From the NCBI GenBank assembly GCA_039908535.1, contig JAMOAW010000002.1:25462-89461 (forward strand): a DNA stretch of 64,000 nt. The letters are read 5' to 3'. The stretch is from Magnetococcus sp. DMHC-6 (GTDB lineage: Bacteria > Pseudomonadota > Magnetococcia > Magnetococcales > JADFZT01). Below are positions 190-61,349 of this stretch, in pieces (within the stretch, counting starts at the first letter, position 1; each line of letters begins with the position of its first letter). The position numbers and the translations under genes were made by a program. A model generated the notes under the pieces. The model had not been told where the DNA came from. It did not search any database and was given only the letters and a program-made list of their open reading frames with translations.

Positions 190-2432
190 CTACTCATCAA
201 GAGTCTCCAAATTTACGGTTACATCTTGAATATTTTTTTGTTCTTCTTCTGAATTTTGTCTTAATTCCAATTCAAGCCACTTCAAACCCTCATCAATGTA
301 ATGAGGCACTTTCCAATTATTATGCTTATCATCATTATTCATCATAATCAGGTTAAGTGCAAACTCTGTTTTCTTGAATGTACGTGACCAAACACGATTA
401 AACAATGCTTTTGCTATATCATCTAACGATTTTTTTTTCGAAACGCTTAAATTTAGTTTTTTGCGTGAGGAATGCTGACACCAATCTAAATTTTCCAATG
501 CAAACATCTCTTCAAATGTACGACCTACCAATAGTTTACTGTTTCCTTCCCAGGAAATTAATTGGTTAGTTTGAAAGGCTATGCGAATTTTTTTTGTAAT
601 GATTTTTTCATCCTCTTTTAATGATAGAAGTTCTTCGATCTTTATTGTATTCAATAATAACTTTTCAATGGTTTTATTTGATGTTATAGCACCAGGTGTT
701 GTTGTTTGACATGTGCCTTTAGGTTTTTTAGTATTTCCTTCTCCCTTTTCGGTATCTGTATTTTTAACATGTTCATGGATGCTATCTAAATCTGTAATTA
801 TAAGTGTAATAATCCCCAAAAACTCAATTAAATCTCTAAAAATATGGGCAAATGCACCACCGACTTCTAGAATACTCAAATATCGGAATTGAAGATCTTT
901 AGCTACCTTTTCGATTATTAAAGGTAACAATAACCGTTCGACATTGCCCTCTACAAGAATGGCAGCATCTGCAAAAAATAGATCACAATGGGTAAGTTTC
1001 ATGTATCGAATGAGAAATGCTTTTTCATCTTCACCAGAATCTCCTTTTTTAAATTGTGCAAGATTCAATACTCGACTATGGGAACGACATTCTTTCGTCA
1101 CCTCACGACGAAAATATCGTATAGAAGAAAAACCAGTTTCATAGAGGATATGAGGAGAATGGGTGGTAACTACCAATTGTGTTGATAATGTTTCTCCTAT
1201 TGGCATATTCAGGCTCAATGCTTTAAATACTTGACGAATAAATACTTGTTGAAGTTGGACGTGAAGGTGAGCCTCTGGTTCTTCAATAATGATCAAATGG
1301 AGCGGAGGGGGGGCAGGTACTAACCTCTTTTCTTTATAGTCGAGCAATTCCAAAATCATGTAAATCATATTTTTGAACCCTAACCCATTGTATCTGTCCG
1401 GCAAAGTCATATCAGAATCGTTATTTGCATCTAATCCTGGAAGACTATAATGGACCTCTGCATTCTCCTTTAATACACTTTCTGAATAATGGTTGCCCGC
1501 ACATTAAGGCGTGGCATGGTCAGGTTGGGATGTCCCATCCCCATTTCTTCTAAAGCTTTAAAAGTTGGCCTAAAAACAGTTGAAAACATTGAATTTATTA
1601 TTTGCTCTGACTCATTAATGGCTTGCATAACTTTATAATTATTTACTTTTTCTTTGTTATGCTGTTTAAAAAAGCGGCTGAAAAGTTTTGATAGATTTTC
1701 TGAACGAACAGAAGAATGAGAGGATTCCTTATCCGTCAGATGCCTCTGTGCATCCATGACATCTACTCTAATAAGATTATTCAAGACTACTTTACATTTC
1801 TCCCCCGTCTCTTCAAGGAGCGGAAAAGGGGTATAGTTTTCCTTTTTCTTATGGCCCTCAAATTCGGCATGATCCAAAACATAATAGTGAATGGCATATG
1901 ACTCATAGAGTTGTTTTGACAAATAATCGCAAAGATTTTTAGGCCATGGATGAAAATCTGATGTTTTTTCCTTCTGGTGAATACTTATATTGTCTTTAGC
2001 TTCTTGGCTGGCATTTTTAAAATCTTCTAGCAGCTTTGTTACATTTTTTGGTTTCCACTGTAAGCGTACACCTATCTTAGTACCTGTCCATTCCAGGCTT
2101 GGTATTAGGTGGATAACATGACGTAAATCACTATCTACGATTTCAAACCACATATCCAGGGTGATACAGGGAAAATCATTCGAGTCCACCTCTTTATTTT
2201 TTAAAGCTTGGTCTCCAAGTCGGTTAAATTCCTTCCAACATGGCGCATAAAAATCATGAAGAGTAAATCGCTCCCCAGCAGAAGAGTCTTTTAAAAATGG
2301 AATAAGTACGTGAGTGGCTGAAGTTTTGCCACTATTATTAGCACCAACAAAAAAAGTTGTTTCCTTGTCCATTTCAATATGAACATCTTTTAATCGGCGA
2401 TAATTTTTAATATGAAGCGATTCAAGACGCAT
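190..2432 (-). pseudogene. OLD-family ABC-type ATPase + Toprim nuclease (class 2 OLD / Gabija GajA-like), reading frame broken once (ORFs 1470..2432 and 190..~1500)
   Basis: N-terminal ORF: MRLESLHIKNYRRL...GANNSGKTS (Walker A). C-terminal ORF: signature-like NGLGFKN, Walker B LHLIIIEEPEAHLH, Toprim Glu (ILVEGNVERLLLP) and DxD (IITDLDS). Both frames are open across ~1470-1500. A 1-nt indel there would join ...PRLNVR to GNHYSESVLKENAEVHYSLPG.... Confidence 0.7.
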
Positions 2433-2649
2433 TTTTTTTATCCATAGAGGTAATTGCAAAAACCGGTAAAAATGGAAATTTATGGACCTTTTGAATCACA
2501 AAGGATCGTAATTTAACGTCCTTTCTGGTATTATGTGTTTGCTAAAAACGATCATAAACACAAGAAAGGACGGAAGAAAATGAATAGTCTTCGAGATGGA
2601 TTATCGCTTATTTGGAACAGAATTCAAGGGTCATTATTTCCTGAGCTTA

Positions 2650-15441: not shown

Positions 15442-16155
15442 TTATTTATACACATGAAACTCAATTCGGCGGTTTTTTGGATTTTCGGGGTCTAAACCCG
15501 CAATAGGTTTCGTTTTTCCCATACCAACGGGAACCAAACGCCAATCTTCAATGCCATTACGGACCAGATAATCTTTGACCGACATGGCCCTTTGCCAAGA
15601 CAATTGACGATTCATTTCATCATTCCCAACCGCATCCGTGTGTCCTTCAACAATTAAAGTAGAATTTTTTGCAGCTGGTGATTTGAGTGCTTCTGCCATA
15701 GTGTTCAAATAGTCATAGGTTGCAGACGATAAAGCTGCAGAACCACTTTTAAACTGTATCGGAAAGGAGACTCCCCCAGAAGAACCGCGTTCTGACTTCG
15801 TTTGAGATAATTCAGAGGGCACAGCTTGTTTCGCACTCTCTTTCGCACTCTCTTTCGCACTCTCTTTCGCACTCTCTTTCGCACTCTCTTTCGCAACTTC
15901 ATTCGAGGGAGCAGGGGAGGGGGTGGTTTTAAATTGAATAGATCTTGTTTTACGCTCTTTCTTAGGCTCAGAAGAGGGCTCAGAAGGAGGAGTAGCCGCA
16001 GAATCAAATAAAATATTTACCAATTCAGAAGCCTCTGGTGCTTTTTCATAAACTTTGGCATCACTCACATCACCCCCGATAACTAAATTTGGAGATAATA
16101 TAGAAGCACTCAGAACAATTGCGAATGATAATTTTAAAAAATCTTTTTTTATCAT
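15442..16155 (-). CDS. OmpA/MotB-type peptidoglycan-binding protein with (AKES)n linker
   Basis: C-terminal LIVEGHTDAVGNDEMNRQLSWQRAMSVKDYL...RRIEF (OmpA_C). N-terminal signal peptide. Confidence 0.85.
   Translation of the reverse strand: MIKKDFLKLSFAIVLSASILSPNLVIGGDVSDAKVYEKAPEASELVNILFDSAATPPSEPSSEPKKERKTRSIQFKTTPSPAPSNEVAKESAKESAKESAKESAKESAKQAVPSELSQTKSERGSSGGVSFPIQFKSGSAALSSATYDYLNTMAEALKSPAAKNSTLIVEGHTDAVGNDEMNRQLSWQRAMSVKDYLVRNGIEDWRLVPVGMGKTKPIAGLDPENPKNRRIEFHVYK
15833..15895. repeat. 12-bp in-frame tandem repeat GCACTCTCTTTC x5 (+ partial), encoding (AKES)n in the OmpA-like gene
   Basis: Five perfect units read directly at 15833-15892. Confidence 0.9.
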
Positions 16156-18151: not shown

Positions 18152-18229
18152 TTAGGTATCCCCATACACGCCAGAAAGTAACTTTTGAGATTTATATCCC
18201 AATAGTTAAACATAATATCACATGTAAGA

Positions 18230-19601: not shown

Positions 19602-19750
19602 CGAACGATGCCCTGCGGAAAAAAAATCAAATGCCAAACCCTGGGGGATGAATCCCCCAGACCCCCTCTTTTTTTTAAAACTTAAAAAAAAGAGGGGGTC
19701 TGGGGGGCAGTTCTCCGCCCCCCAAAGGTCTTGATTTTTTCCGATACATT
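19602..19750 (+). repeat. REP/MITE family 2 copy R3
   Basis: CGAACGATGCCCTGCGG...CCCTGGGGGATGAATCCCCCAGACCCCCTC T-run / A-run GAGGGGGTCTGGGGGGCAGTTCTCCGCCCCCC...CCGATACAT. Confidence 0.85.
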
Positions 19751-19759
19751 AAAATTTGA

Positions 19760-20068: not shown

Positions 20069-20223
20069 AATGCCCTGCGGGAAAAAAAAATCAAATGCCA
20101 AACCCTGGGGGATGAATCCCCCAGACCCCCTCTTTTTTTTAAAACTTAAAAAAAAAGGGTGGGGGGAATTGGGGGGTGGCTCTGCCCACCCAAAGGTCTT
20201 GATTTTATTTTTCCAATACATAA
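20063..20223 (+). repeat. REP/MITE family 2 copy R4
   Basis: Full-length copy GAACATAATGCCCTGCGGG...CCAATACAT. Confidence 0.85.
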
Positions 20224-20250: not shown

Positions 20251-20375
20251 GAACATAATGCCATTCGGGCAGAAAATAAAAAACAAAAAACTGAGGATTG
20301 AATCCCCAGACTCCCTCTTTTTTTAAATATTAAAAGAAAAGGGTAGGGGATTGAGGGGAGCAGTTCTTCTCTGAT
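20251..20375 (+). repeat. REP/MITE family 2 copy R5 (diverged), tandem to R4
   Basis: GAACATAATGCCATTCGGGCAG...CTGAGGATTGAATCCCCAGACTCCCTC.... It ends just before the caspase gene stop. Confidence 0.7.
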
Positions 20376-23838: not shown

Positions 23839-24051
23839 TATTTAAATCCTGATTTTCCCCAAATATTTTTTGTTTAATTTTTTTTATTCCAAAATCATGA
23901 CGTACAATTTTTTTAAAAAAACTTAACATATCTTGACATTTATATCAATATTTGATAAATTCTATATAAACATAAAGAAAAAAAATAAAAAGATGGCGTT
24001 TCTGACGCAATTAGGGTGAACGATTCTTCAATAATATGGAAGGATAGTGCT

Positions 24052-24990
24052 ATGTTTAAATATAAAATTTTATTTTTATCTATTTTTTTTGTTGTATTAA
24101 CTCTCTCCATGACGGTTCATGCGGCACCTACTCCTGTAGAATTATTAATGCAGGTAAAAGGAGATGTTTTCTACAGTCATGAGGGGGGAGAATGGAAAGC
24201 CGTCCACCGTAATAAATATCTATTTCCTGGCGATCAGATTAAAACTGAAAATGGGGGATCTGGTCGTCTTATTAACCAAAAGAAACAACAGTACCGCACC
24301 TTAGGTCCCAATACCCTTCTTAAAATTAACGATGACCAAGCCTCGTTGGTCTCTGGGACTTCCCTTTCAGATTTTCAAGCCTTAGATGAACTCTCAAGCT
24401 CAGTCACCAATTTGTTTTCCAATTCACAAATGTATACCACAAAACGACGCAGTATCTTACACAAAGAGACGATCCATTTGGAAACCATCCAAAAAATAAC
24501 TTTGTCCAATACATATCCAGAGTTAATTTGGGAAGAGCTCGGCCCACAATACAGCTACCGATTAACCATAGATGATCATAGTGTCGATATCCATGGAACA
24601 AACAATGAAATCGTCCGATATAAAATTTCCGAACTTTCGCCCGGAGAACATCCATACAAGGTGGAACTCTTGAAAGATGGCAAGGTGATCGAAAGCCCAA
24701 AAAAAGCAACAGTCATTCGTTGGCTATCTCATGATGAGATGGAAATCATCTCTCAAGAAATGGAAAAAATTCGGCATTTAATCCCAGATGACGATTTAAT
24801 CCTGGCCAGTTATTTGGAAGAAAAAGGGTTGGCTGTCGCGGCTATGGACATGTACCAAAAATATTTCAAAGAAAATCCTGAGGACGTGGATATGCGTCCT
24901 ATGATGATTCAATCTTATTATAACCTAAAATTGACCAATCTAAGGAAAAAAGAGATGATCAATTTTAGCTCGAGTGAAAGTGGAAAATAA
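24052..24990 (+). CDS. Secreted protein with FecR-like N-terminal domain
   Basis: MFKYKILFLSIFFVVLTLSMTVHA signal. VKGDVFYSHEGGEWKAV..NKYLFPGDQIKTENGGSGRL resembles the FecR domain pattern. The ORF maximum starts at 24016. Confidence 0.5.
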   Translation: MFKYKILFLSIFFVVLTLSMTVHAAPTPVELLMQVKGDVFYSHEGGEWKAVHRNKYLFPGDQIKTENGGSGRLINQKKQQYRTLGPNTLLKINDDQASLVSGTSLSDFQALDELSSSVTNLFSNSQMYTTKRRSILHKETIHLETIQKITLSNTYPELIWEELGPQYSYRLTIDDHSVDIHGTNNEIVRYKISELSPGEHPYKVELLKDGKVIESPKKATVIRWLSHDEMEIISQEMEKIRHLIPDDDLILASYLEEKGLAVAAMDMYQKYFKENPEDVDMRPMMIQSYYNLKLTNLRKKEMINFSSSESGK

Positions 24991-29621: not shown

Positions 29622-31828
29622 TTGGAGTATAAGGTGTTACAACGCCAATTGCTGCGTTACCTATTGAGCTTGGCGGTTCTTACCATTTTTTTATTGCACA
29701 CGCTGGATGTGCTGCCATTGCAATTTCTAAAACAAATGGAAAATGTTGCCTATGATCTTCGGGTGCGTATAACCATGCCAGAAACCCTGGATCCGCGTAT
29801 TGTTATTGTTGATTTAGATGAAAAAAGTCTTGCTAAAATAGGTCGTTGGCCCTGGGGACGGCAACACGTGGCGCGTTTGGTGGATTATTTGTTTAATTAT
29901 TATCAAATTAGTGTCTTGGGTTTTGATATCGTGTTTGCTGAACCGGATGAAAGTTCTGGTTTAAAAATTTTGGATAAATTGCTACAAAACGAACTCAAAG
30001 AAAACACCCTTTTTAAACTGCTATTTGCAAAAATTCGACCAACTCTAGAAAATGATAAAATTTTTGCCAGCCATTTAAAGGACCGAGCTGTTATTCTTGG
30101 CTATTATTTTCGTTCCGAAGCCATGAGTGGATCCACCTCTTCGGGTATGTTACCAGAACCTATTCTCACTTTGGATGAGTTTGAAAAGTCTAATATTCCT
30201 TTTTATGAGGCTCGTGAATTTGGGGCCAATTTACCTGATTTGCAAAAGGCGGCTCTCAATGCCGGCTTTTTTGATAGCCCTGCGGTGGGCGAAGACGGAG
30301 TATTTCGGAGTGCGCCCTTGATCCAAAAATATCAAAAAGGGCTTTACCAATCGTTATCCTTGGGAATTATCCGTGCCCTTTTGGGGGATCCTCCTTTGAC
30401 TTTTGGAATCGTTTCCACCACGGACAATCCACTTGAAACCGATTATGGATTGGAATGGGTGGGGGTCGGTGATTACAAAATTCCAGTGAACGAGCAAGCT
30501 GCGGTGTTGGTCCCCTATCGAGGCAAACAGGGCAGTTTTCCTTATGTCTCTGCCGTGGATATTTTAGAAAAGAAAGCTCCCCTTACTCTATTGAAAGATA
30601 CCATCGTCTTGGTCGGCACCTCGGCCCCTGGGCTCATGGATTTACGGACGACGCCCGTACAAAGTGTTTATCCAGGTGTGGAGGTACATGCCAATATCAT
30701 CAGCGGAATTTTGGATGGCAAGATTCATCAAAAACCTGGTTATTCTTTGGGAGTGGATCTTTTGACTCTTCTGTTTGTTGGTCTGACCATGACTTTTTTA
30801 TTACCTCATTTAGCCCCCGCCTGGACCACCTATGTGACGGTATTATTTTTATTTTTTCTCAGTTGGATCAATCTTCTTTTTTGGAAAGAATTCTATCTCG
30901 TTATAACCTATTCTACACCAATCATTTTGATTTTTATGATGTTTTTATTGCATATGTCCTATGGTTTTTTCGTAGAGTCCCGTGGCAAGCGACAGTTATC
31001 TAGAATGTTTGGTCAATATATTCCATCAGAATTGGTGGATGAGATGAATCAAAGTGGCAAGGATTTTTCTATTGGGGGGGAGTCTCGGGAAATGTCGGTA
31101 CTTTTTTCTGATGTTCGTGGATTTACCACCATTTCTGAAGGGCTTAACCCAGAGGAGTTGACCAATTTGATGAATGGCTTTTTAACACCGATGACCCATA
31201 TTATTCATGCGCATCGGGGAACGATTGATAAATATATGGGTGATGCGATCATGGCTTTTTGGGGAGCTCCTCTGGATGACCCCACCCATGCCCGCAATGC
31301 CGTTTTGGCTGGTCTTGCGATGATTGATGGCCACCTTTGACGATCGGTGTTGGGGTGAATAGCGGATTGATGAATGTAGGTAATATGGGATCGGAATTTC
31401 GCATGGCTTATACTGTTTTGGGAGATGCCGTCAATTTAGGGTCTCGTCTGGAAGGGTTAACCAAACAGTATGGTGTCCATATGATTATCGGTGCCTCTAC
31501 GCAACACATTGTCGGCGCACAGATTGCTTGTCGGGAGTTGGATCGGGTTCGTGTCAAAGGTAAGGACGAACCGGTGATTATCTATGAACCCATTGGCCCG
31601 GTTGAAGGTTTATCTCCTGAAATGCAATCGGAGTTAAACATTTATCATCAAGCGTTAGCCTTGTATCGAATGCAAAATTGGGAAGAGGCTCTTCAACGTT
31701 TTCGAGCTCTTCAGCAACGGGATCCAGAGCGGATGATCTATAATATCTATCGGCAGCGCATTCAACTCTTTCGTAACGAACCGCCTGGATCAGATTGGGA
31801 TGGGGTGTTTACCCATACCAGTAAATAA
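29622..31828 (+). pseudogene. CHASE2-sensor class III adenylate/guanylate cyclase, catalytic domain interrupted (ORFs 29622..31340 and 31337..31828)
   Basis: CHASE2-like periplasmic part and TM block. Cyclase motifs VLFSDVRGFTTISE, GTIDKYMGDAIMAFWGAP, then a stop at 31338. It continues in another frame as (WPP)[29 protein letters not shown]. Confidence 0.75.
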
Positions 31829-31834
31829 AACGAT

Positions 31835-32095
31835 GCGGCACCACCACACTTAACCGTAGTCGTCTGTTTTTTGATTTTATTATTTAAAAAAAAAGGGGTC
31901 TGGGGGATTGCCCCCAGGGTTTTGTTTTTGTTTTTGTTTTTGTTTTTGTTTTTGTTTTTGTTTTTGTTTTTGCTTTTGCTTTTGCTTTTGCTTTTGCTTT
32001 TGCTTTTGCTTTTGCTTTTGACCTCGGTTTTGCTTCCTTCAAACAGCAGGGGGATTGGGGGATGCAATCCCCCAAGGTCTTGACTTTGTTTTTAC
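31835..32095. mobile_element. MITE family 1, copy B (one terminus recognisable, other end degraded) carrying an expanded hexanucleotide repeat
   Basis: GCGGCACCACCACACTTAACCGTAG... aligns with copy C up to ...CCCCAAGGTCTTGACTTTG, then diverges. Lies between the convergent cyclase and terB. Confidence 0.7.
31919..32020. repeat. Hexanucleotide microsatellite: (TTTTTG) x8 plus a leading partial unit, then (CTTTTG) x8
   Basis: Counted directly. The homologous spot in MITE copies A and C has only 1-2 such units. Confidence 0.95.
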
Positions 32096-35082: not shown

Positions 35083-35127
35083 AGATAAACGAAAGGCTCC
35101 GAAATCAGGCGGTTTTGAGTAGGTTTA

Positions 35128-35288
35128 GAACATGATGCCCTTCGGGCAGAAAAAATCAAAGGCCAAACCCTGGGGGATGAATCCCCCAGACCCCCTCTTT
35201 TTTTTAAAAATCAAAAGAAAAGGGTGGGGGGAATTGGGGGGCGGTTCTCCGCCCCCCAAGGTCTTGATTTTTGTCTTTCCGATACATA
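35128..35288 (+). repeat. REP/MITE family 2 copy R6 (full length)
   Basis: GAACATGATGCCCTTCGGGCAG...CCGATACAT, directly downstream of the flagellin gene. Confidence 0.85.
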
Positions 35289-35375
35289 AATTAAAGAATG
35301 CAGCATGGAGCACCAAAAGTCAAAAATAAAATCCAGAAGATCTTTTTTAGGATAAACGCCCCCCTGCCCGATTCA

Positions 35376-47141: not shown

Positions 47142-47149
47142 TTATTTTA

Positions 47150-47287
47150 ATGTATCGGAAAAATAAAAATCAAGACCTTGGGGGGCGGAGAACCGCCCCC
47201 CCAATTCCCCCCACCCTTTTCTTTTGATTTTTAAAAAAAAGAGGGGGTCTGGCCTTTGATTTTTTCTGCCCGAAGGGCATCATGTTC
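47150..47287 (-). repeat. REP/MITE family 2 copy R7 (inverted orientation, lacks one hairpin module)
   Basis: ATGTATCGG...GGGGGGCGGAGAACCGCCCCCCC...GGGCATCATGTTC. Confidence 0.8.
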
Positions 47288-47861: not shown

Positions 47862-48915
47862 ATGGCACTGTTTTTGGATCAACTGCTTAGTTTACTGCTA
47901 GAGATATCTCCTTGGTTGATTTTTGGGTTGCTGGCGGCAGGTTTGGTCAAGGCTTGGGTTCCTGAAACTCTGATCAGCCGTTGGTTGGGGGGGAGTGGTA
48001 TGGGTAGCATTACCCGAGGGGCATTGATTGGCACTCCGTTGCCTCTGTGCTCATGTAGCGTGATTCCCATGGCCATGGGGTTATATCGCAAAGGGGCTTC
48101 CAAACCGGCCACCATCTCTTTTTTAGTAGCCACTCCAGAGACCGGTATTGATTCTATAGCCCTTTCTTGGGTGCTTTTAGGACCGTTTATGACCCTTATT
48201 CGTCCAGTGTCGGCCATGATGAGTGCTATTTTTTCTGGTGTTTTAATTCTTATTTTTGCCAAAGAGCGTGCCACCTCTCCCCTGCCCCAACCCAAAGCTT
48301 GTATTAAATCCTGTTGTGGTGTTTCCGCCAATTCCAACGACTCTCTCCCAAAGCCCACCCACACACAGACGCTAAAATATGGTATAGCCTATGCGATGGG
48401 GGATATGTGGGATGATTTGGCGTTGTGGCTTATGGGGGGAGTTGTGGTGACGGCGGCGGTGATGACTTGGATTCCCCAAGGGGAGTTGACCGACTATGTG
48501 GGGGGGGGGGTGGCTCTCCATGTTGAGCATGGTTCTGGTCAGCGTTCCGGTCTATGTCTGCGCCTCTGCCTCCACGCCTGTGGCTGCCGCTATGCTTCAT
48601 GCCGGTTTGACTCCTGGCATGGCCCTAGCCTTTCTCATCGCTGGACCCGCTACCAATCTGGCAACTTTGGTAGTGGTTTACCAAGAGATGGGGGGACGTA
48701 CCTTGACCGCTTATCTGGTTGGCATCGTGCTGAGTGCCATGGGGATGGGGGCTTTGACGGATTTTATTGGAACACAATGGCCTGTGTTGCAAAGCGTTGC
48801 CAACCTGAATACCGGTGCCGAAGCGGCACTGCCGGTTTGGCTGGAGTGGGGATGTACATTGTTTGTGTTGGGGTTGACGGGACGGACTTTGAAACAAAAA
48901 ATTAAAATGGGTTAA
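47862..48915 (+). pseudogene. ArsP/YraQ-like (DUF318) permease with vicinal-Cys motif, frame broken at a G11 tract (ORFs 47862.. and 48496..48915)
   Basis: N-terminal half has PLPLCSCSVIP. After the G run at 48500-48510, frame 1 becomes Arg/Cys-rich nonsense. The other frame reads membrane-like LSMVLVSVPVYVCASASTPVAAAMLHAGLTPGMALAFLIAGPATN. Confidence 0.7.
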
Positions 48916-50065: not shown

Positions 50066-53000
50066 ATGCAAGCCGGCACAATACTTGCCGAAAACCGCTA
50101 TACCATCCTAAAACAATTGGGAGAGGGAACCTTTGGTTCGACGTTTTTAGCCCTGGAGGAGAGTTCTAGGCTGAAAGTCGTTGTCAAGCCAATTGGGCCA
50201 ATAGTGGTTGGCGATGATCGAGAATTTAACAATTTGATAAAAAATTTCCATTTTGTTCATCATTTGGATCATCCCTGTATTGCCCAACTTCACGCTTTGG
50301 AATATGATGCCAAAATTGGGCAACATTTTCTGGTCATAGAATATATTGATGGCCAAAATTTAAATGAATTTCGTAAAAAACAACCCGACGCAAAACTCAC
50401 GGTGTTGGATGCTCTACATATTTGTCAACAAATAGCCGATGTTTTAGACCATTCCCACCGCACCATTTTACATCGTAATCTTAAACCTGAAAATATATTT
50501 ATATATGCGGACGGAATGGTCAAATTAACCGATTTTTGCCTGACTTCAGAAGCCATGCGGGCGCAATTATTGCAAAGCCGCACGATATGCCAGGGGGGGC
50601 AAACATTTCCCCATCCCTATCTGGCCCCGGAACAGCTCTTCTCATTTCCTCCCCCAGGACCAGCGGCAGATCGGTACGCATTGGCGGCCATTTTTTATGA
50701 ACTGGTGGCTGGCTCTCCCCCCCCATGCAACCAAATTAAATCCACGGAACTGGCGAAAAAAAATGATTTGGTTGGCAACGAATCGTTTAAACCGCTGGAC
50801 AAACTGAGTAAACGTCAAAATATTGTGTTAGCAGAGGCCCTCTCCCAAAATCCCGCTTTGCGTTATCCTTCGGCTGGAGAGTTTATCGAGGCCTTGACAC
50901 CCACCCGGTATACCACGCTAGGTAGCCACAGTCACACCCTTATGCTATTAGGCGGCCTTACCCTTATTGGTGGACTGACCGCTTTGTTGCTATTTTCTGA
51001 TGGTTGGGGCCCCGCGCCCTTCTCTGCCACCCCTCCACAAACAGAAAATCAGCCGTTAAATAATGAGATCACGACCTTGGCCTTACAAATTCATAGCGTA
51101 CCGGAAGGGGCCAATTTAATATTGAACGATCAATCTATTGGCCAAACGCCTTTTATTGGCAAAAAGGTACTCAAAGGTCGTTATCATATTCGTTTGGAAA
51201 AATCGGGATATAAAACTACCGACATCGAGGTGACCCTCAACGCCGATACCCGGCTTGACTTAACCTTGGTTGCTGAAATAGCGGATAAAACCATTGTATC
51301 TGAACAAGAACCTCTTGGCAAAGGGCTGACCAAACATATCCAAGAATTGCTTGATGCCGCCAACCAGGATATCAAAGCCGACCGACTCACCGCGCCGGTC
51401 AACAATAATGCCTACGAAAAATTGCATCAAGTATTGGATTGGGATCCCAACAACGCCGAAGCCAAAGCATCCCTGACCAAAATAGTCGATATATATCTTA
51501 AATTAACCGATGAAAACGCCACCAACTTGGAAGAGGCCGCCAAATATTTAGAAAAAGCCTCTACAATCCAACCAAATGATCCACGCATTAAAGAATATGA
51601 GAAAAAAATGGATGTCTGGTTGCGCGAGCGGCGTTTGACAGTTCTTCTTGAATTGGCCCAAAACCACGTCGATGCCAATCGTCTGACACAACCCGATGGG
51701 AACAACGCCCTAGAGGTCTACCAACAAATTTTACGCATTGATCCCAACCATGCCGAGGCGTTGACCGCCGTCAAAGGGATGATCAACGATCTATTAAAAG
51801 AGGCCCGTGCCGATATTAAAGCCGAGCGTTTCATCGCACCAGATAGACAAAACGCCTTGGAAAAATTTCGTTTTATCCTAAAAATAGATCCCAATAATAC
51901 CGATGCCCAAGCGGCAATTGAATCGCTCTTTGACCACTATTTAACCTTAGCTAAAAAAGCCAAAAATGATGTGGATGAGATGAATCGTCAATTGGATATG
52001 GCCAACAAAGTGCGACCAGACGACTCTAGAATTGAACTCTACCGCCAAAAAATAAACACAGATTTACAAAAAAAGGCCGAGTCTGAACAACAACAAAAAA
52101 TTCACGATACCCTGCAACGCGCCCAACACTATTTGGAGGCCGACCAACTGACCCGTCCAGAACAAAACAACGCCTGGACCCAATTGCAGGCCGTTTTGCA
52201 ATTGGACCCTGAAAATGGTGCGGCAAAAGCCGGAATCGATCAACTGGTTGAAAAGCTATTTCGTTTTGTCGACATCGATATTCAAGAGCGACGCCTGAAC
52301 AATCCCCCCACGCGCAACGCCTTGGAAAAATTGCGCACCCTTGAAGAGATTCGGCCCAACGAACCCAGAATACAAAGTGCTCGCGAACGCATTGGTACCA
52401 TGTATCTGGAAATGGCCACGCAAACACAAGGGGAGAAGGCCGAGCAATATCGGCAGCAAGCGACCCTGCTGCTGCCCAAGTCATCCACAACGGATACCCC
52501 CTCCAATCCTCTGGAGCAACTCTCTGCCCTTCCTCAAGGGGAGATAGAAACCCTTTTAAAACAAGCGCAAGATGATCTAGAGGCCCAACGACTCACCCAG
52601 CCATCCGATCAAAACGCCATGGTGAGATTTAAAAAAGTTTTGCAATATGACCCGCAAAATCAACGTGCCCTGGCCGGATTGCGCGAAGTCGCGCATCAAT
52701 TAGTTCTCTTTGCCCAACAAGATCTTAAAGAGGAACGCCTCTCTAAACCAGCCAATAAAAACGCCCTGGATCGCTTTCGTCTCGCCCTAGAGGTAGACCC
52801 CAACAACCAAGAGGCCCAGCAAGGGATTCGCGATGTTGCCAGGGCATTGTTAAAAATGGCCCTGGAGATGGCTACAAAAAAACCTAACAATGCCGAGCCA
52901 TTGTTTCAAAAAGCCGCGCTCATTTTACCCGAAGATGAAGAGATCAATTTGGCCTATCAAGCGTTCAAAGGCAACAACGGTATACAAAAACCCCTAGAAC

Positions 53001-53833
53001 AGGCCCCAGTCGCGACCCCGCCCCCCATCTCTCAACCCGTAGCAACGACGGAGGCGCCCCCCATAACCAACCAACCTCCCCAAGGAGCACCCTCCCCCCT
53101 CGCCAACGCCGAAATATGGCGCGAACCCTCGACGGATATCTCTTTTGTGCATTTGCCAAAAGGGTGTTTTCAAATGGGCAGTCAACCAAACGATTCCGAC
53201 GAAGAACCGACCCATGAGGTGTGTGTCGACTCCTTTTGGATGGGACAGTATGAGATCACTCAGGAACAATGGGTAGCGGTCATGGGGCAGAGAGGTAACC
53301 CCTCTCGTTTTCAAATGGGCAAAGAGTATCCCGTGGATCAAGTCTCCTGGAATGAAGCGCAACTGTTTATAAAGACCTTCTCCAATCTGACCAAAAAACA
53401 GTTTCGTCTGCCGACCGAGGCCGAATGGGAGTACGCCTGCCGGGCCAACACCACCACCCCTTTTTCGTTTGGTGCCACCATCCAACCCCAACAAGCCAAT
53501 TATAATGCCAATTTGGTCTATGGACAGGGATCCACAGGGGTCTATCGGCGTTCTTCAACACCAGTGGGAAGTTTTCCACCCAATGGCTTCCATATTTTCG
53601 ATATGCATGGTAATCTATATGAATGGGTAGAAGATTGGTATGAAAAAAGCTATTATCACACTTCTCCTAAAAATAATCCCAAGGGTGGAGATGGTACAAG
53701 TGGTATGCGCGTTTTACGAGGTGGAGCTTGGTACAGCAACCCTGAAAACCTCCGTTGTGGCTACCGATATCGGGGACGACCTGATATTCAAAATTATGGC
53801 AATGGCATGCGCTTGGTATATGTTTCTCCTTAA
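50066..53833 (+). CDS. Membrane-spanning multidomain protein: Ser/Thr-kinase-like domain (HRN/DFC variant), TM, PEGA domain, ~7 helical repeat modules, C-terminal FGE-sulfatase (SUMF1-like) domain
   Basis: GEGTFGSTFLA, VVVK, HRNLKPEN, TDFC, YLAPE. SVPEGANLILNDQSIGQTPF (PEGA). Repeated ..RLT.P..NNA.E....L..DPNN.EA... C-terminal RLPTEAEWEYACRA..., RVLRGGAW. Confidence 0.85.
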   Translation: MQAGTILAENRYTILKQLGEGTFGSTFLALEESSRLKVVVKPIGPIVVGDDREFNNLIKNFHFVHHLDHPCIAQLHALEYDAKIGQHFLVIEYIDGQNLNEFRKKQPDAKLTVLDALHICQQIADVLDHSHRTILHRNLKPENIFIYADGMVKLTDFCLTSEAMRAQLLQSRTICQGGQTFPHPYLAPEQLFSFPPPGPAADRYALAAIFYELVAGSPPPCNQIKSTELAKKNDLVGNESFKPLDKLSKRQNIVLAEALSQNPALRYPSAGEFIEALTPTRYTTLGSHSHTLMLLGGLTLIGGLTALLLFSDGWGPAPFSATPPQTENQPLNNEITTLALQIHSVPEGANLILNDQSIGQTPFIGKKVLKGRYHIRLEKSGYKTTDIEVTLNADTRLDLTLVAEIADKTIVSEQEPLGKGLTKHIQELLDAANQDIKADRLTAPVNNNAYEKLHQVLDWDPNNAEAKASLTKIVDIYLKLTDENATNLEEAAKYLEKASTIQPNDPRIKEYEKKMDVWLRERRLTVLLELAQNHVDANRLTQPDGNNALEVYQQILRIDPNHAEALTAVKGMINDLLKEARADIKAERFIAPDRQNALEKFRFILKIDPNNTDAQAAIESLFDHYLTLAKKAKNDVDEMNRQLDMANKVRPDDSRIELYRQKINTDLQKKAESEQQQKIHDTLQRAQHYLEADQLTRPEQNNAWTQLQAVLQLDPENGAAKAGIDQLVEKLFRFVDIDIQERRLNNPPTRNALEKLRTLEEIRPNEPRIQSARERIGTMYLEMATQTQGEKAEQYRQQATLLLPKSSTTDTPSNPLEQLSALPQGEIETLLKQAQDDLEAQRLTQPSDQNAMVRFKKVLQYDPQNQRALAGLREVAHQLVLFAQQDLKEERLSKPANKNALDRFRLALEVDPNNQEAQQGIRDVARALLKMALEMATKKPNNAEPLFQKAALILPEDEEINLAYQAFKGNNGIQKPLEQAPVATPPPISQPVATTEAPPITNQPPQGAPSPLANAEIWREPSTDISFVHLPKGCFQMGSQPNDSDEEPTHEVCVDSFWMGQYEITQEQWVAVMGQRGNPSRFQMGKEYPVDQVSWNEAQLFIKTFSNLTKKQFRLPTEAEWEYACRANTTTPFSFGATIQPQQANYNANLVYGQGSTGVYRRSSTPVGSFPPNGFHIFDMHGNLYEWVEDWYEKSYYHTSPKNNPKGGDGTSGMRVLRGGAWYSNPENLRCGYRYRGRPDIQNYGNGMRLVYVSP

Positions 53834-54367: not shown

Positions 54368-56912
54368 ATGAAAAAAGAGTCCGGGCATACGCCGATGATG
54401 GAGCAATTTTTGGCCATCAAAGCCGAATATCCGGGAACTCTGCTTTTTTATCGCATGGGGGATTTTTACGAACTCTTTTTAGACGATGCCATTCAAGCCG
54501 CACCCGTGATGGAGATCGCTCTCACCACCCGTGGAAGATCCAACGGTGAACCCATTCCCATGGCCGGGGTGCCGATTCATGCCGCTGAAAGCTATTTAAA
54601 AAAGCTTATTTTGGCGGGTTTTCGGGTGGCTATTTGTGAACAAATGGAACCCGCAGGCCAGAGCAAAGGCCCAGTCCGACGCGAAGTGGTCCGTTTGGTA
54701 ACGGCTGGGACCCTCACCGAAGAGGAACTATTAGAGGCACGAGCCAATAATTTTTTGGTCGCCATTGCCCCACCGCACCCTAAAGAGCTCCGCATTGGCA
54801 TTGCCGCCTTGGATCTTTCAACGGGTCAATTTCAAGTCGCCCGCGCCGATTCTTGGGATCAAGCCGCCGCCGAGTTATCTATTTTAAATCCCGCCGAGGT
54901 CATTGCCCCCACCGAATGGCATCCTGTGGAGCCGTTTTCCCCCTGGCTCAAAAAACTCACCCGCCGTCCAAATTGGGAATTTGACCCTGGGGAGGCCTCC
55001 CGGTTGCTCATGGACCATTTTTTGTCAATCCGCTGCCGGTGGCTTGCTGGCTTACTGCCGTGAAACCCAAAAAGATGCCTTGACCCATATTACGGGCCTC
55101 ACCCGTACCTATCCCGATGACACCCTTATTTTAGATGATGCCTGCCGCCGCAACCTGGAGATAAATGTCAGTTTGCGCACCAATCAACGCAAAGGAAGCC
55201 TTGGCGATCTTCTGGATACCGCCCATACCGCTATGGGAGGGCGGCTTTTGCGCGGCTGGTTAAACCGTCCTTTGCGCAGTTGTTCTCTTATTCAACAACG
55301 TTTGGCGGGCGTCGAATGGTTTTTAAAACATTTTCAAAAACGGGAAACCGTCCGCCAAACTCTTAAAAAGGTCCACGATCTGGAACGTCTTTTAGGTCGC
55401 ATTGCCCTTAAACGCGCCTCACCAAGAGATTTGGGTGCCCTGCGGGATACCCTCAATTGCATTCCCCTTGTGGAACAACTGTTCACAGATCAAAAACTCC
55501 CGGAGATTTTGCAACAGGTATTACCTTCGTTATCTCAACATGCCGACTTGTCGGTCCGTTTAAACCAAACTTTGACCGATGAACCCCCCATTAAACTCCA
55601 AGATGGCAACGTCATTCGCCCCCTTTTCAACCCAGAACTGGATAAGTTACGCACCATCACCGAACATGGCAAAGAGTATCTGGCCGAATTGGAGCAACGG
55701 GAGAGAAAAAAAACCGGTATTTCTAGCCTCAAAATTGTCTATCATCACAGTTTTGGTTATACCCTACAAGTCACCAATACCCAACGGGATAAAGTACCCT
55801 ACCATTATATTCCCAAACAGACCATGGTAAACGCGGTCCGCTATGTAACCGAAGAGTTAAAACAAGAGGAAGAGACCATTCTAAATGCCGAAGTCAATCT
55901 GACTCACATGGAGGCTATGCTGTTTGAACAGTTGGCCCTTGAGGTGTCAGAACATGCGGCCTCTTTACAACAGACCGCTCATGCGTTGGCTGTTCTGGAT
56001 GTCCTGACCACCTTTGCCGATACCGCTCATCGGCGCAATTATTGCCAACCATACCTAGAAGAAGGCGACACCATTGACATTCGCAATGGCCGCCACCCGG
56101 TGGTAGAGGCTTTCAACGACACCCCTTTTGTCGCCAACGATACCCTCTTAAATACCACCACCAACCGCATTGCCCTCATCACTGGCCCCAACATGGCAGG
56201 CAAGTCCACCTTGATGCGTCAGGTGGCCCTTATTGTTCTCATGGCTCAAATGGGCTCTTTTGTGCCGGCAAGCAGTGCCAAAATTGGTTTGGTGGATCGT
56301 ATTTTTACTCGAATTGGGGCGGCCGATGATCTGGCCGGGGGGCGTTCAACCTTCATGGTAGAGATGACAGAAGCCGCGCACATTCTACACCATGCCACGC
56401 CTCGCTCTTTGGTGATTTTTGACGAAATCGGACGCGGCACCTCTACCTTGGATGGCCTGGCCATTGCTCGGGCCGTGGCCGAACATATTTATTCTTATAA
56501 CCGCTCACGCACCCTTTTTGCCACCCACTTCCATGAATTGACCATTTTGGAACAACTCAATCCCGGCATTGTCAACCATACTGTAGAGGTCAAAGAGGTT
56601 GAAGAGCAAATTCTTTTTCTACACACCATCATTCGCGGGGCCGCCGATCGTTCCTATGGTATCCACGTCGCCCAACTGGCAGGGCTCCCCGCCACCGTCA
56701 TCACCCGTGCCAATGCCATTTTGGCCGATCTAGAATCCAACGCACCCCAAAAGAAACGCCCTGCTAAACCGAATAAAACCCAAACGCAATTAAGCCTTTT
56801 TTTAGAACACCCTCCTGAACCAATCGTTTTGGAATTAAAACATATGAATCCAGACGATCTAACCCCCAAGCAAGCCTTGGAGTTACTTTATCGATTAAAA
56901 AAAATGGTTTAA
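54368..56912 (+). pseudogene. mutS: DNA mismatch repair protein MutS, reading frame broken near 55018-55025 (ORFs 54368..55063 and 54903..56912)
   Basis: N-terminus: [30 protein letters not shown]. After ...LLMDHF the frame changes at a T6 run and resumes [16 protein letters not shown].... The second ORF has Walker A GPNMAGKST and DEIGRGTST. Confidence 0.85.
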
Positions 56913-56938
56913 TGGTCGTGCGCTTAGATCTATTTTCG

Positions 56939-57155
56939 GTAGCACCACACTTAACCGTGGTCATTTGTTTTTTGATTTTATTATTTAAAAAAAAAGGGGT
57001 CTGGGGGATTGCCCCCAGGGTTTTTCTTTTACTTTTGACCTCGGTTTTGCTTTCTTCAAAAAGCAGGGGGATTGGGGGATGCAATCCCCCAAGGTCTTGA
57101 CTTGGCTTTTTGTTCAGGCACTCGTTCATCGTCCACACTTAAATGTGGTGGTACC
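56939..57155. mobile_element. MITE family 1, copy C, complete, flanked by a 9-bp direct repeat CTATTTTCG
   Basis: Termini GTAGCACCACACTTAACCGTGG ... CCACACTTAAATGTGGTGGTACC. CTATTTTCG occurs at 56930-56938 and 57156-57164. The right copy contains the recQ stop codon. Confidence 0.85.
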
Positions 57156-58988
57156 CTATTTTCGATGATGTTTGATGAAATCTTCCACTACTCGCAAAAA
57201 AACCGGGCCATATTTTTCCAACTTGGCTTTGCCTACCCCAGAAATGGCCATCATTTGTTCCAGAGTGCGCGGCTGTTTTTCGGCCATGATCCGTAAGGTC
57301 GCATCATGAAAAATGACATAGGGTGGCACTTTTTGAGCAAGTGATAATTCACTGCGTTTGGCCCGCAAGAGATCCCATAAATCCTCTTTTCCCTCACCAA
57401 ACACCTCTTCTACCGCTCGTTTATAGTTATTTTTCTTTTTAACCGATGAAAAAAATTTCTCTTCTGGTTCTTGACGGATAAACACTTTTTGTTCATCACG
57501 CAACAAGGGACCGCAAGCATGGGTTAATTTTAACCCTGCAAACTCATGGTCATTTTTACACAGATAACCTGCTACCACCAAATGACGAAAGACCGCGTGC
57601 CATTGACGTTCACTCAAATCTTTGCCAATTCCAAAGGTACTGACCAAGTGATGACGGTGCTTAAGAACCTGTTCCGACTCTATGCCACGCAATACATTTA
57701 CCAAGTGACGCACACCAAATATTTGCTCGGTTCGGTGTACACATGAGAGGGCTTTGCGAGAGGCCAGGGTGGCGTCCCAGACTGGAGCTGGATTTAAACA
57801 AATGTCGCAATTGCCACAATCCGCCCCTCCCGTTTCACCAAAATAGCGTAAAAGAATATTACGGCGACAACTGAACGCCTCACAATAATTCAACATCGAT
57901 TCCAACTTGGCACTTTCCACCCGTTTTTGGGTTTCATCGGCATTGGATTCGGTGATAAATTTACGCAACATCACCATATCTTCCAAGCCATAAGTGAGCA
58001 AAGCCTCGGCCTTTTCACGATCTCGACCCGCACGTCCGGTCTCTTGATAATAGGCCTCCAGGCTTTTAGGCATATCCAAATGAACGACAAATCGCACGTC
58101 TGGTTTATCGATTCCGAGTCCAAAGGCGATGGTCGCTACCATAATAATCCCCTCTTCATTTAAAAAACGGTCCTGATTCTCTTGCCGTTGTTTGGAATTC
58201 ATTCCCGCATGATAGGTTAAGGCTTTCCGTCCTTGTTGGAGAAGATAGTCACAGGTTAACGCCACCTTGTTACGGGAAATTCGGTAGACGATTCCAGACT
58301 CTTTAGGAGATTTTCTGGTTAAAAAATGACGCAATTGTAAATGTGGATTATTTTTGGCAATAACCGTATAACGAATATTGGGACGATCAAAACTAGAGAT
58401 AAATATACGAGCGCGTCCCAAACCAAGACGTGTTAAAATTTCAGCCCGCGTTGTGACATCTGCGGTGGCTGTCAATGCAATCCTGGGCACCATGGGAAAA
58501 TGGTTTTCCAAAACCGACAGCCCCAAATAATCTGGACGAAAATCATGCCCCCACTGAGAAACGCAATGGGCCTCGTCGATGGCAAACAATGCCAACGGTA
58601 CTTGATGTAAATAATCTAAGAAATCGGGACGTAATAACCGTTCTGGAGAGACATACAATAGGTCCAACGCACCCGCAGACAACCGTTGAAAAACTTGATG
58701 GGCCTCTTCTGGAGTTTGTGCTGAACTCAAACTTCCGGCCCGAACATTTAATTGCAACAACGCCTCAACCTGATCCCGCATCAATGAAATAAGCGGTGTT
58801 ACTACGACCCCGACACCAGAACGAACCAAAGAAGGCAACTGATAACAAAGAGATTTTCCACCCCCCGTTGGCATTAACACCAGGGCATCTCCCCCGCCAA
58901 TGACATGCTCAATAATCTCTTCTTGATGCCCCAAAAATTGAGAATAACCATACACAGAACGCAATAAATCATAAATCCGTTGGCGCAT
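57156..58988 (-). CDS. recQ: ATP-dependent DNA helicase RecQ
   Basis: MPTGGGKSLCYQLP, DEAHCVSQWGHDFRPDY, zinc-finger cysteines, C-terminal HRDC-like region. 610 aa. Confidence 0.93.
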   Translation of the reverse strand: MRQRIYDLLRSVYGYSQFLGHQEEIIEHVIGGGDALVLMPTGGGKSLCYQLPSLVRSGVGVVVTPLISLMRDQVEALLQLNVRAGSLSSAQTPEEAHQVFQRLSAGALDLLYVSPERLLRPDFLDYLHQVPLALFAIDEAHCVSQWGHDFRPDYLGLSVLENHFPMVPRIALTATADVTTRAEILTRLGLGRARIFISSFDRPNIRYTVIAKNNPHLQLRHFLTRKSPKESGIVYRISRNKVALTCDYLLQQGRKALTYHAGMNSKQRQENQDRFLNEEGIIMVATIAFGLGIDKPDVRFVVHLDMPKSLEAYYQETGRAGRDREKAEALLTYGLEDMVMLRKFITESNADETQKRVESAKLESMLNYCEAFSCRRNILLRYFGETGGADCGNCDICLNPAPVWDATLASRKALSCVHRTEQIFGVRHLVNVLRGIESEQVLKHRHHLVSTFGIGKDLSERQWHAVFRHLVVAGYLCKNDHEFAGLKLTHACGPLLRDEQKVFIRQEPEEKFFSSVKKKNNYKRAVEEVFGEGKEDLWDLLRAKRSELSLAQKVPPYVIFHDATLRIMAEKQPRTLEQMMAISGVGKAKLEKYGPVFLRVVEDFIKHHRK

Positions 58989-59132: not shown

Positions 59133-59186
59133 GAACATAATGCCCTTTGGGCAAAAAATCAAAATCAAAACCCTGGGGGATGAATT
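59133..59186 (+). repeat. REP/MITE family 2 copy R8, 5' part only
   Basis: GAACATAATGCCCTTTGGGCAAAAAATCAAAATCAAAACCCTGGGGGATGAAT, then unrelated sequence. Confidence 0.7.
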
Positions 59187-59465
59187 TCCCTGTCCATAAT
59201 GAAAACTTCATCCGCCCCAAATTTGGCTCAAGCGAGTTTTGTGCTCTCCACTTATGGTGCTGGTAAATAGGAAGGTCGCCAAAAAGGACGAGTGAGCTAA
59301 CGGGTCGTTTCGGTCCACTAATAAAAATAGTACCAAATTCCGTATCCGATAAGGTCGCCATCAAAAACGAATTTTTTTAAATATCAAATAAATTCAATTT
59401 TTAACAAATAATACAAAAAAATTGAATTCGAAATTGGGGCAGCTGAGGTTTTTAGTAGGGATAGG

Positions 59466-60296: not shown

Positions 60297-60312
60297 CCCA
60301 TTAATTCTTCAG

Positions 60313-60392
60313 AACATGATGCCCTGTGGGCAAAAAAAAGCAAAGGCCAAACCTTGGGGGATGAATCCCCCAAACCCCCTCTTTTTTTTAAG
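60313..60392 (+). repeat. REP/MITE family 2 copy R9, 5' part only
   Basis: GAACATGATGCCCTGTGGGC...CCTTGGGGGATGAATCCCCCAAACCCCCTC T-run, then a break. Confidence 0.7.
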
Positions 60393-60407
60393 TATTAAAG
60401 GATACCC

Positions 60408-61349
60408 CTATCGCCGAATGGCATCCAAATTTTCTATAAACCAAGCATAGGTCTTTTTTATGCCCTCCTCTAAAGATGTCTTTGCGTGCCAACCAAGCCT
60501 ATCCGCTTGTGAAACATCCAAAAGTTTTCTGGGGGTGCCTTCAGGCTTAGTGGGATCAAAGAACACTGTCCCTGAATAGTCCACAATGTGTTTCATAAGA
60601 TCGACCAGTTCGGCAATAGTGACCTCTTGGCCAGTGCCAATATTGATGGGTTCGCTGCGGTTATAATGATCCATTAAAAATAAGCAGGCATCGGCCAAAT
60701 CATCTACAAATAAAAATTCACGGCGTACCCGTCCCGTTCCCCAAACCGTAACGGTTGGCGTATCGCGCACTTTGGCTTCATGAAAACGACGCATCAAGGC
60801 TGGTAAGACATGGGCATTTTCGTTGTGAAAATTATCTCCTGGGCCATATAAATTGGTCGGCATAACGCTTATGGCAGAAAAGCCAAACTGTTTCCTGTAG
60901 GCTTGACACATTTTGATACCGGCCATTTTGGCAATGGCATACCATTCATTGGTGGACTCCAATGGACCTGTGAGCAAATATTCCTCACGCATGGGCTGTG
61001 CTGCCGCTCTTGGATAGATGCACGAACTACCCAAAAATAATAATTTTTCCACCCCACTCTTCCAAGCAGAATCGATGACGTTGGTCTGAATTTGCAAATT
61101 ATCGCGAATAAAATCGGCTGGATAGGTGTCGTTCGCATAAATGCCACCGACACGCGCCGCCGCTAAAAATAGATATTTTGGACGTTCTTGTTGAAAAAAA
61201 TCCTCCACAGTCCGTTGATTGGTTAAATCTAATTGTGCATGTGTTCTGGTGAGAAGATGATCAAAACCCTGCTTTTGCAACGATCGAACCAGCGCCGACC
61301 CAACCAACCCCCGATGACCCGCAATAAAAATAGAATCGCTTTTATTCAT
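60408..61349 (-). CDS. fcl: GDP-L-fucose synthase (GDP-4-keto-6-deoxymannose epimerase/reductase)
   Basis: [20 protein letters not shown] (Rossmann), ...YPADFI.DNL.IQTNVI... Start ATG 61349 overlaps the gmd stop by 8 nt. Confidence 0.88.

What the first reader, a model, noticed from the sequence alone, without database searches (positions are those of the whole stretch)
54368..56912. mutS is interrupted; possible mutator background consistent with the many unstable repeats in this window
The MutS frame breaks at a T6 run (55018-55023): ...RLLMDHF | [16 protein letters not shown].... Compared with E. coli MutS as I remember it (..[36 protein letters not shown]..), about 15-20 residues containing the conserved L-x-GFG linker also seem to be missing. 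The lesion may therefore be a ~50-nt deletion rather than a simple indel.

The same 64 kb contains three other broken genes:
- OLD, by a 1-nt shift.
- The permease, at a G11 run.
- The cyclase, by a short deletion.

It also contains a G16 run, an expanded hexanucleotide repeat and two stutter arrays. Loss of mismatch repair would explain this constellation. Homopolymer sequencing errors would explain part of it too.
Basis: partly seen in the sequence, partly recalled or inferred. Interest (0 to 1): 0.7.

Follow-up and report, generated by a model that had tools for sequence, protein, structure and literature searches.

The report
Broken mutS gene in draft genome
The DNA-repair gene mutS in this uncurated draft genome of an uncultured magnetotactic bacterium lacks 44 bases and is out of frame, but the break is more likely an assembly error (or a very recent mutation) than evidence of a long-standing mutator organism.

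Summary
mutS is split into a 231-aa and a 669-aa ORF at the T6 run 55018-55023. The lesion is a 44-nt deletion that removes exactly the 15-aa connector segment present in 119 of 119 orthologues. The three other broken genes are also real in the sequence: OLD has a 1-nt shift, an ArsP-type permease is shifted at G11, and a CHASE2 cyclase has a 40-nt deletion.

The mutator reading is weak, for four reasons:
- Apart from the deletion, mutS shows no decay.
- 27 of 28 homopolymer runs of 8 nt or more inside ORFs are in frame.
- There are no nonsense lesions.
- Two of the four lesions are 40-44-nt deletions, which mismatch repair does not prevent.

The window comes from the MAG Magnetococcus sp. DMHC-6. 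That genome was made from MDA-amplified cells, IDBA scaffolds and metaWRAP reassembly, without curation, and this route is documented to leave local assembly errors. No second public copy exists, so the reads cannot be checked here.

My estimates are about 55% assembly or amplification artefact, about 30% a genuine and very recent mutS-null allele, and under 10% a mutator background that explains the whole constellation. The finding is ordinary and of low interest.

The parts
54368..55021 (+). mutS 5' part, codons 1-218: MutS domain I including the GDFYE mismatch-binding motif, and domain II profile positions 1-94
55018..55023 (+). T6 run that holds the deletion junction. TTT (F218) is 55019-55021, the leftover T is 55022, and TGT (Cys) starts at 55023. 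44 nt (15 codons minus 1 nt) are missing here.
55022..55063 (+). Out-of-frame tail of the 5' ORF ([13 protein letters not shown], then a stop)
55023..56912 (+). mutS 3' part (CQSAAGG... to the stop): rest of domain II, domains III, IV and V (Walker A GPNMAGKST, DEIGRGTS) and the C-terminal dimerisation helix. No further lesion.
55080..56912 (+). The 610-aa product annotated at NCBI as MutS (MEO5376330.1), starting at an internal TTG. The 231-aa 5' ORF is annotated separately as a hypothetical protein (MEO5376329.1).
31326..31327 (+). Junction of a 40-nt deletion in the CHASE2 adenylate/guanylate cyclase (ORFs 29622..31340 and 31337..31828). 15 aa present in 120 of 120 orthologues are missing.
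48500..48510 (+). G11 run at which the ArsP-type permease (47862..48915) changes frame. No residues are missing (profile position 208/208), and G10 would be in frame.
1470..1480 (-). 1-nt frameshift in the OLD-family nuclease (ORFs 2459..1470 and 1410..190), at a short T/A run

Best explanation
The deposited sequence really does lack 44 nt of mutS, which deletes the 15-aa connector-domain segment and shifts the frame. The most likely reason is that the consensus is wrong at this point. I think it is a local assembly error, or less likely an amplification-born deletion, in an uncurated MAG built from MDA-amplified DNA, IDBA scaffolds and metaWRAP/SPAdes reassembly. On this reading the organism has an intact mutS and is not a mutator. 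The 40-nt deletion in the cyclase would be a second error of the same class. The G11 shift in the permease is either a length miscall or the normal instability of a long G tract. The OLD shift may be a genuine pseudogene of an accessory defence gene.

Shown: the anatomy of the lesions, the absence of decay in mutS, the provenance of the sequence and the lesion spectrum. Inferred: that the two deletions arose during assembly or amplification.
For: Provenance:
- The window is 100% identical to the MAG Magnetococcus sp. DMHC-6.
- The supplementary methods of PMC9840458 state REPLI-g MDA of magnetically collected cells, 150-bp paired reads, IDBA scaffolds at k = 20-120, then metaWRAP binning and reassembly. 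No curation is described.
- Chen et al. [quoted passage not shown] They found 13 in a 1.13-Mb genome.
- MDA makes rearrangements with 2-21-nt junction microhomology (PMC1855051).

Sequence evidence:
- There are two lesions of almost the same unusual size, 44 nt and 40 nt. Each removes exactly a 15-aa block that is invariant in length among orthologues.
- mutS is otherwise pristine: 72 of 73 invariant columns are kept, and there is 1 substitution at 186 near-invariant columns against an orthologue median of 2.
- There is no homopolymer-frameshift signature.
- All other roughly 45 ORFs of 120 aa or more have full-length Pfam matches.
- No other public copy of either MutS fragment exists.
Against: - There are no Ns in the window. 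If it is a true contig rather than a scaffold, reads should span the junctions.
- MDA chimeras are mostly inverted (more than 85%), whereas these deletions are direct.
- Four loci from sister MAGs made with the same pipeline (L082 to L085, about 84 kb) show no split genes in their gene tables. DMHC-1 agrees with an independent assembly over 17,083 bp with 0 indels. The pipeline is therefore not uniformly this error-prone: 4 lesions against 0 gives a conditional p of about 0.035.
- I could not inspect reads, so the key step is inferred.
- My recollection of how IDBA and SPAdes join contigs with short or mis-estimated overlaps is from memory and was not verified.
Confidence: 0.55

Rival explanations
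1. The deletion is real. The dominant DMHC-6 genotype in the sampled microcosm carries a very recent mutS-null allele, created by a 44-nt microhomology deletion. The cells are mismatch-repair deficient, but the state is too young to have left a genomic signature. The other three lesions are independent events.
For: - The sequence is continuous, without Ns.
- DMHC-6 shows more lesions than sister MAGs from the same pipeline.
- Both MutS pieces are otherwise intact, as expected for a fresh lesion.
- mutS-null mutators are known at percent-level frequencies among natural isolates (established knowledge).
- No second DMHC-6 MutS appears among the 120 best homologues.
Against: - A MAG consensus requires the null allele to dominate the population.
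- A second deletion of nearly the same odd size, in an unrelated gene 24 kb away, is not explained by mismatch-repair loss and would be a coincidence.
- The pipeline is known for local errors.
- No mutator spectrum is visible.
Confidence: 0.3
2. One reading: a long-standing mismatch-repair-deficient (mutator) background produced the broken genes, the G runs, the expanded hexanucleotide repeat and the stutter arrays.
For: There are four disrupted genes in 64 kb. One break is at a G11 tract. Homopolymers of 8 nt or more are about 12 times commoner than base composition predicts: 50 observed against about 4 expected.
Against: - mutS shows no relaxed constraint.
- 27 of 28 long runs inside ORFs are in frame.
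- There are no substitution-derived stop codons.
- Two of the four lesions are 40-44-nt deletions, outside the MutS substrate range.
- G16 and the TTTTGC array are parts of a dispersed repeat element.
- All other ORFs are intact.
Confidence: 0.08
3. MutS is still made: a +1 ribosomal slip on CAU UUU U|UG U would join the two frames into a full-length protein lacking 15 aa, or the two fragments would work together.
For: The U6 run allows tRNA-Phe to re-pair perfectly one base downstream, which lands exactly in the downstream frame (D-H-F-C-Q).
Against: - None of the 119 orthologues lacks the segment or has a frameshift there, and the segment holds an invariant Leu.
- The MutS_II domain would be truncated.
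- No stimulatory element was identified.
- T6 is short for efficient slippage.
Confidence: 0.02

Closest known systems
Local assembly errors in uncurated short-read MAGs (described for IDBA-UD by Chen et al. 2020, PMC7111523)
   Same: Same assembler family and the same lack of a curation step. The result is a small unsupported stretch or join that corrupts a protein-coding gene, and several such lesions occur per genome.
   Different: Read support could not be examined here. The sample was also MDA-amplified, which adds a second possible source of error.
Natural mutS-null mutator alleles (for example in E. coli/Salmonella isolates and Pseudomonas aeruginosa from chronic infection)
   Same: A single inactivating lesion in an otherwise intact mutS.
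   Different: Those alleles were verified in isolates with measured mutation rates. Here there is no phenotype, no read-level confirmation and no mutator spectrum in the surrounding 64 kb.
Bacterial MutS1 (E. coli MutS, PDB 1E3M; Taq MutS 1EWQ)
   Same: All five domains and the motifs are recognisable: GDFYE, Walker A and B, and the C-terminal helix. The E-value is 5e-56 for the N-terminal part and 3e-149 for the C-terminal part.
   Different: The equivalent of residues 218-232 in the connector domain is deleted, and the reading frame is broken.
Hypermutable poly-G contingency tracts (Campylobacter, Neisseria, Haemophilus)
   Same: A G11 tract inside the ArsP permease ORF, with the gene in the 'off' frame.
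   Different: No population length heterogeneity could be examined. A tract-length miscall after MDA and Illumina sequencing is equally possible.

Membership tests
Bacterial MutS1 mismatch-repair protein | N-terminal mismatch-binding domain with the Phe-X-Glu motif | tested here: met
   MGDFYELF is present. MutS_I matches profile positions 1-113 of 113 at E = 1.9e-40.
Bacterial MutS1 mismatch-repair protein | Complete connector domain (MutS_II) | tested here: not met
   Only profile positions 1-94 of 133 are matched, whereas P0002 matches 1-132. 15 aa that are present in 119 of 119 orthologues are absent.
Bacterial MutS1 mismatch-repair protein | Core, clamp and ATPase domains with Walker A and B motifs, and a C-terminal dimerisation region | tested here: met
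   MutS_III, IV and V are matched at full length. GPNMAGKST and DEIGRGTS are present. The alignment to E. coli MutS runs to residue 853.
Bacterial MutS1 mismatch-repair protein | One continuous reading frame | tested here: not met
   The frame changes from 2 to 0 at 55022.
Natural mutator (mismatch-repair-null) lineage | The lesion is present in the organism's DNA, not only in the assembly | not testable with these tools
   No reads are available and no second public copy exists.
Natural mutator (mismatch-repair-null) lineage | Mutational signature: excess of +/-1 frameshifts at long homopolymers and of transition-derived lesions | tested here: not met
   27 of 28 runs of 8 nt or more inside ORFs are in frame. 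There are no nonsense lesions. The other ORFs are full length.
Natural mutator (mismatch-repair-null) lineage | No back-up mutS in the genome | tested here: inconclusive
   No second DMHC-6 MutS appears among the 120 best hits, but the MAG is incomplete and could not be searched as a whole.
Local assembly error | Consensus at the site is not supported by any read, or shows anomalous read-pair distances | not testable with these tools
Local assembly error | The sequence was produced by a pipeline known to make such errors, without curation | tested here: met
   MDA, IDBA scaffolds and metaWRAP reassembly. IDBA-UD errors are documented.
Local assembly error | Recurrent lesions of the same type at unrelated sites | tested here: met
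   A 44-nt deletion in mutS and a 40-nt deletion in the cyclase. However, about 84 kb from sister MAGs showed none.
Programmed +1 frameshift gene | The frameshift site is conserved in orthologues | tested here: not met
   All 119 orthologues are continuous ORFs that contain the 15-aa segment.

The most novel reading that the evidence does not exclude
An uncultured freshwater magnetotactic coccus population was sampled shortly after its dominant genotype lost MutS through a 44-nt deletion. This would be a natural mutator bloom caught before any genomic signature accumulated. A 40-nt deletion in a cyclase would hint at an additional process in the same cells that generates deletions of about 40 nt.
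Probability: 0.3. Interest if true: 0.35.

Novelty: not a real feature. Interest (0 to 1): 0.15.

Why it matters
If the lesion were real, it would be one more natural mutS-null allele. That is a known phenomenon, and it would be of modest interest for the population biology of uncultured magnetotactic bacteria.

The practical value is cautionary. Two NCBI protein records (MEO5376329.1 and MEO5376330.1) are fragments of a single MutS. At least one more gene in the same contig carries a deletion of the same kind. Gene-content or 'repair-loss' inferences from this MAG should therefore not be made before the reads are checked.

Tried and rejected
- Independent copies. The look-up of encoding contigs found no record for the 610-aa MutS, the 231-aa fragment or RecQ. 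An exact 24-mer next to the junction had no match in metagenome contigs. The protein search shows nothing between 66% and 100% identity, and both fragments are single-member clusters. No second assembly of this organism is public.
- The genome-contig scan with the fused MutS was wasted.
- I searched all six frames of the window for the missing L-x-G-F-G segment, in case it had been displaced by a chimera. No convincing hit was found.
- One search used a query whose N-terminal part I had typed from imagination. I discarded it and repeated the search with the true sequence.
- A simple +/-1 indel at the T6 run is rejected, because 15 codons are missing.
- An orthologue that naturally lacks the linker is rejected: 0 of 119 do.
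- The Rfam and tRNA scans of the window found nothing.
- I considered poly-G read artefacts as the source of G16 and G11. G16 lies in a copy of a G-rich repeat element, and G11 shows no missing residues, so neither looks like a chimeric join.

Full report
**What is in the sequence**

Two overlapping ORFs on the + strand are both MutS: 54368..55063 (231 aa) and 54903..56912 (669 aa), which lie in different frames. The first aligns to E. coli MutS residues 8-211 (E = 5e-56). The second aligns to residues 236-853, starting at its own residue 44 (E = 3e-149).

Pfam finds MutS_I and only positions 1-94 of 133 of MutS_II in the first ORF, ending at F218. It finds MutS_III, IV and V at full length in the second. 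The nearest orthologue, P0002, has a complete MutS_II.

D-H-F is the last conserved upstream tripeptide. C-Q is the first conserved downstream dipeptide, and one T is left between them.

In a MAFFT alignment with the 119 best orthologues, the stretch between that F and that C is 15 aa in 118 sequences and 14 aa in one. It is absent only here. It contains a Leu that is invariant in 119 of 119, followed by the G-F/Y-G/D motif. The lesion is therefore a 44-nt deletion (45 minus 1). It corresponds to E. coli residues 218-232 in the connector domain. It is not a homopolymer indel.

- OLD nuclease. The AAA_15 profile is split into positions 1-256 and 296-373. The two frames overlap over about 20 codons near 1470-1480, which fits a 1-nt shift at a short T/A run.
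- ArsP-type permease. The profile is split exactly at position 208/208, at the G11 run 48500-48510. G10 would be in frame.
- CHASE2 cyclase. All 120 of the closest orthologues have exactly 15 aa between '...MI(D)' and 'PL...'. The downstream frame reads [11 protein letters not shown], matching GWPPLKIGVGVN in the orthologues. Only 'GA' (31326-31327) remains between ATT and TGG, which makes this a 40-nt deletion.

All the other roughly 45 ORFs of 120 aa or more give full-length Pfam matches.

**Where the sequence comes from**

The 610-aa C-terminal product is 100% identical to 'MAG: DNA mismatch repair protein MutS [Magnetococcus sp. DMHC-6]', on a 121,124-bp contig. The next best MutS is only 66% identical.

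NCBI carries the two pieces as separate proteins: MEO5376329.1 (a hypothetical protein) and MEO5376330.1 (MutS). Each is a single-member cluster.

The source paper (PMC9840458) states in its supplement that the DNA was prepared and assembled as follows:
1. Cells were collected magnetically and amplified with the REPLI-g Single Cell kit.
2. The DNA was sequenced as 150-bp pairs with an insert of about 270 bp.
3. The reads were assembled into scaffolds with IDBA at k = 20-120.
4. [quoted passage not shown]

No curation is described. Chen et al. [quoted passage not shown] They found 13 of them in a 1.13-Mb genome and note that such errors spread incorrect protein sequences. MDA itself produces rearrangements with 2-21-nt junction microhomology, though more than 85% of them are inverted (PMC1855051).

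**Is there a mutator signature?**

I found none, for four reasons.

1. mutS shows no relaxed constraint. It keeps 72 of the 73 columns that are invariant in the 119 orthologues, and the single loss is the deleted Leu. At 186 columns that are at least 95% conserved it has 1 substitution, against a median of 2 for the orthologues. There is no second frameshift or stop in 2.5 kb. The lesion is therefore either evolutionarily brand-new or not real. Either way it cannot account for long-lived features such as repeat arrays.

2. The hallmark of mismatch-repair loss is a steep rise of +/-1 frameshifts with homopolymer length, together with a transition excess (established knowledge from mutation-accumulation studies on mismatch-repair-deficient E. 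coli). The window has 28 runs of 8 nt or more inside ORFs, and 27 are in frame. The OLD shift sits at a run of only 2-3 nt. No ORF is broken by a substitution-derived stop.

3. Two of the four lesions are 40-44-nt deletions. MutS-dependent repair acts on mismatches and loops of about 1-4 nt (established knowledge), so its loss does not explain the cyclase deletion.

4. The G16 run lies inside one copy of a dispersed intergenic palindromic element. Sister copies read GGGGGTCTGGGGGG or GGGGAATTGGGGGG at that position. The TTTTGC array lies inside another copy, whose closest sister, located just 3' of mutS, is 84 nt (14 units) shorter. Both are features of a repeat family, not scattered microsatellite instability.

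**Real or artefact?**

The strongest internal clue is the pair of deletions. They are 44 and 40 nt long. Each removes exactly a 15-aa block that is fixed in length across orthologues. Each has at most about 4 nt of possible junction microhomology, and the two genes are unrelated and lie 24 kb apart. Two natural deletions of this unusual and nearly equal size, one of them in a housekeeping repair gene, would be a coincidence. A technical process with a characteristic length scale explains both.

Against a purely pipeline-wide artefact:
- The window has no Ns.
- Four loci from sister MAGs of the same study (DMHC-1, MYC-9, YQC-3 and DMHC-8; about 84 kb in total) show no split genes in their gene tables. 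Two suspicious spots in DMHC-8 turned out to be intact.
- DMHC-1 agrees with an independent NCBI assembly over 17,083 bp, with 172 mismatches and 0 gaps.
- Four lesions in 64 kb against none in 84 kb gives a conditional p of about 0.035.

Something is therefore specific to DMHC-6. It could be poorer or more uneven coverage after MDA, or it could be real biology. I cannot decide this without reads, and no second public copy of this organism exists.

My estimates are:
- about 55%: a local assembly or amplification error;
- about 30%: a genuine, very recent mutS-null allele;
- about 2%: a functional product through a +1 slip on the U6 run. That slip would land exactly in the downstream frame, but it would yield a protein lacking a segment that no orthologue lacks.

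**Comparison with known things**

As a protein, this is an ordinary MutS1 with every motif in place except the deleted connector segment, so it fails the 'complete domain II' and 'continuous ORF' tests. As a phenomenon it is either a textbook local assembly error in an uncurated MAG or one more natural mutS-null allele. Neither is new.

**Verdict**

The mutator interpretation is not supported by the lesion spectrum or by the state of mutS itself, and the provenance of the sequence makes an artefact the more likely explanation. Interest is low. The useful outcome is a warning about this MAG's gene calls and a precise read-level test.

Noticed in passing
5706-5927, 10372-10503, 13025-13151, 19598-19742, 20062-20212, 20258-20352, 31836-32093, 35127-35290, 47147-47287, 56929-57157, 59140-59195, 60311-60455: A dispersed intergenic palindromic repeat family of about 130-260 nt, with G5/C5-rich arms around a T8...A8 centre. 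There are at least 12 copies in 64 kb, in both orientations, which makes it MITE/REP-like. It contains the G16 run and the TTTTGC array.
   Followed up: partly
2650-3660: A 1-kb irregular 'stutter' array of AAA(A/T)TTCGGTGACAC, optionally extended by AATACCT and AATTGCTTTTTC. It has many truncated units at spacings of 16-120 nt and lies between the OLD nuclease start and a Fic-domain gene. Its origin is unknown; it could be biological or a repeat mis-assembly.
   Followed up: partly
31920-32020 versus 56937-57110: The TTTTGC x17 array is an expansion inside one copy of the repeat element. The closest sister copy, 3' of mutS, is 87-93% identical and 84 nt (14 units) shorter.
   Followed up: partly
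18226-19985: Four copies of a 230-nt unit (67-91% identical, spaced 434-646 nt apart) in a stretch with few ORFs. I did not characterise them.
   Followed up: no
15829-15895: A perfect 12-nt x 5.6 tandem repeat (TTTCGCACTCTC) inside an OmpA-family ORF (15442..16155, - strand). It is an in-frame 4-aa repeat.
   Followed up: no
24016-24990, 29622-31828, 50066-53833 and 54368-56912; L083, L084, L085: The gene order MtxA, CHASE2 cyclase, Ser/Thr kinase-PEGA-FGE-sulfatase, MutS is contiguous in MYC-9, YQC-3 and DMHC-8. In DMHC-6 it is interrupted between MtxA and the cyclase (metG and an HD-GYP gene) and by about 18 kb of other genes between the cyclase and the kinase (Ter genes, flagellin, a TonB receptor, a hybrid kinase, the ArsP permease and miaA).
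   Followed up: partly
L081 and L082, position 18196 onward: The two NCBI assemblies of DMHC-1 (GCA_015228935.1 and GCA_039908575.1) are 99% identical without indels for 17 kb, then diverge completely inside a gene. This is either a strain difference or a chimeric join in one of the assemblies.
   Followed up: no
27395-29581: A GAF/HD-GYP protein matches the HD_5 profile only from position 58 of 170. I did not check whether this reflects divergence or a further in-frame loss.
   Followed up: no
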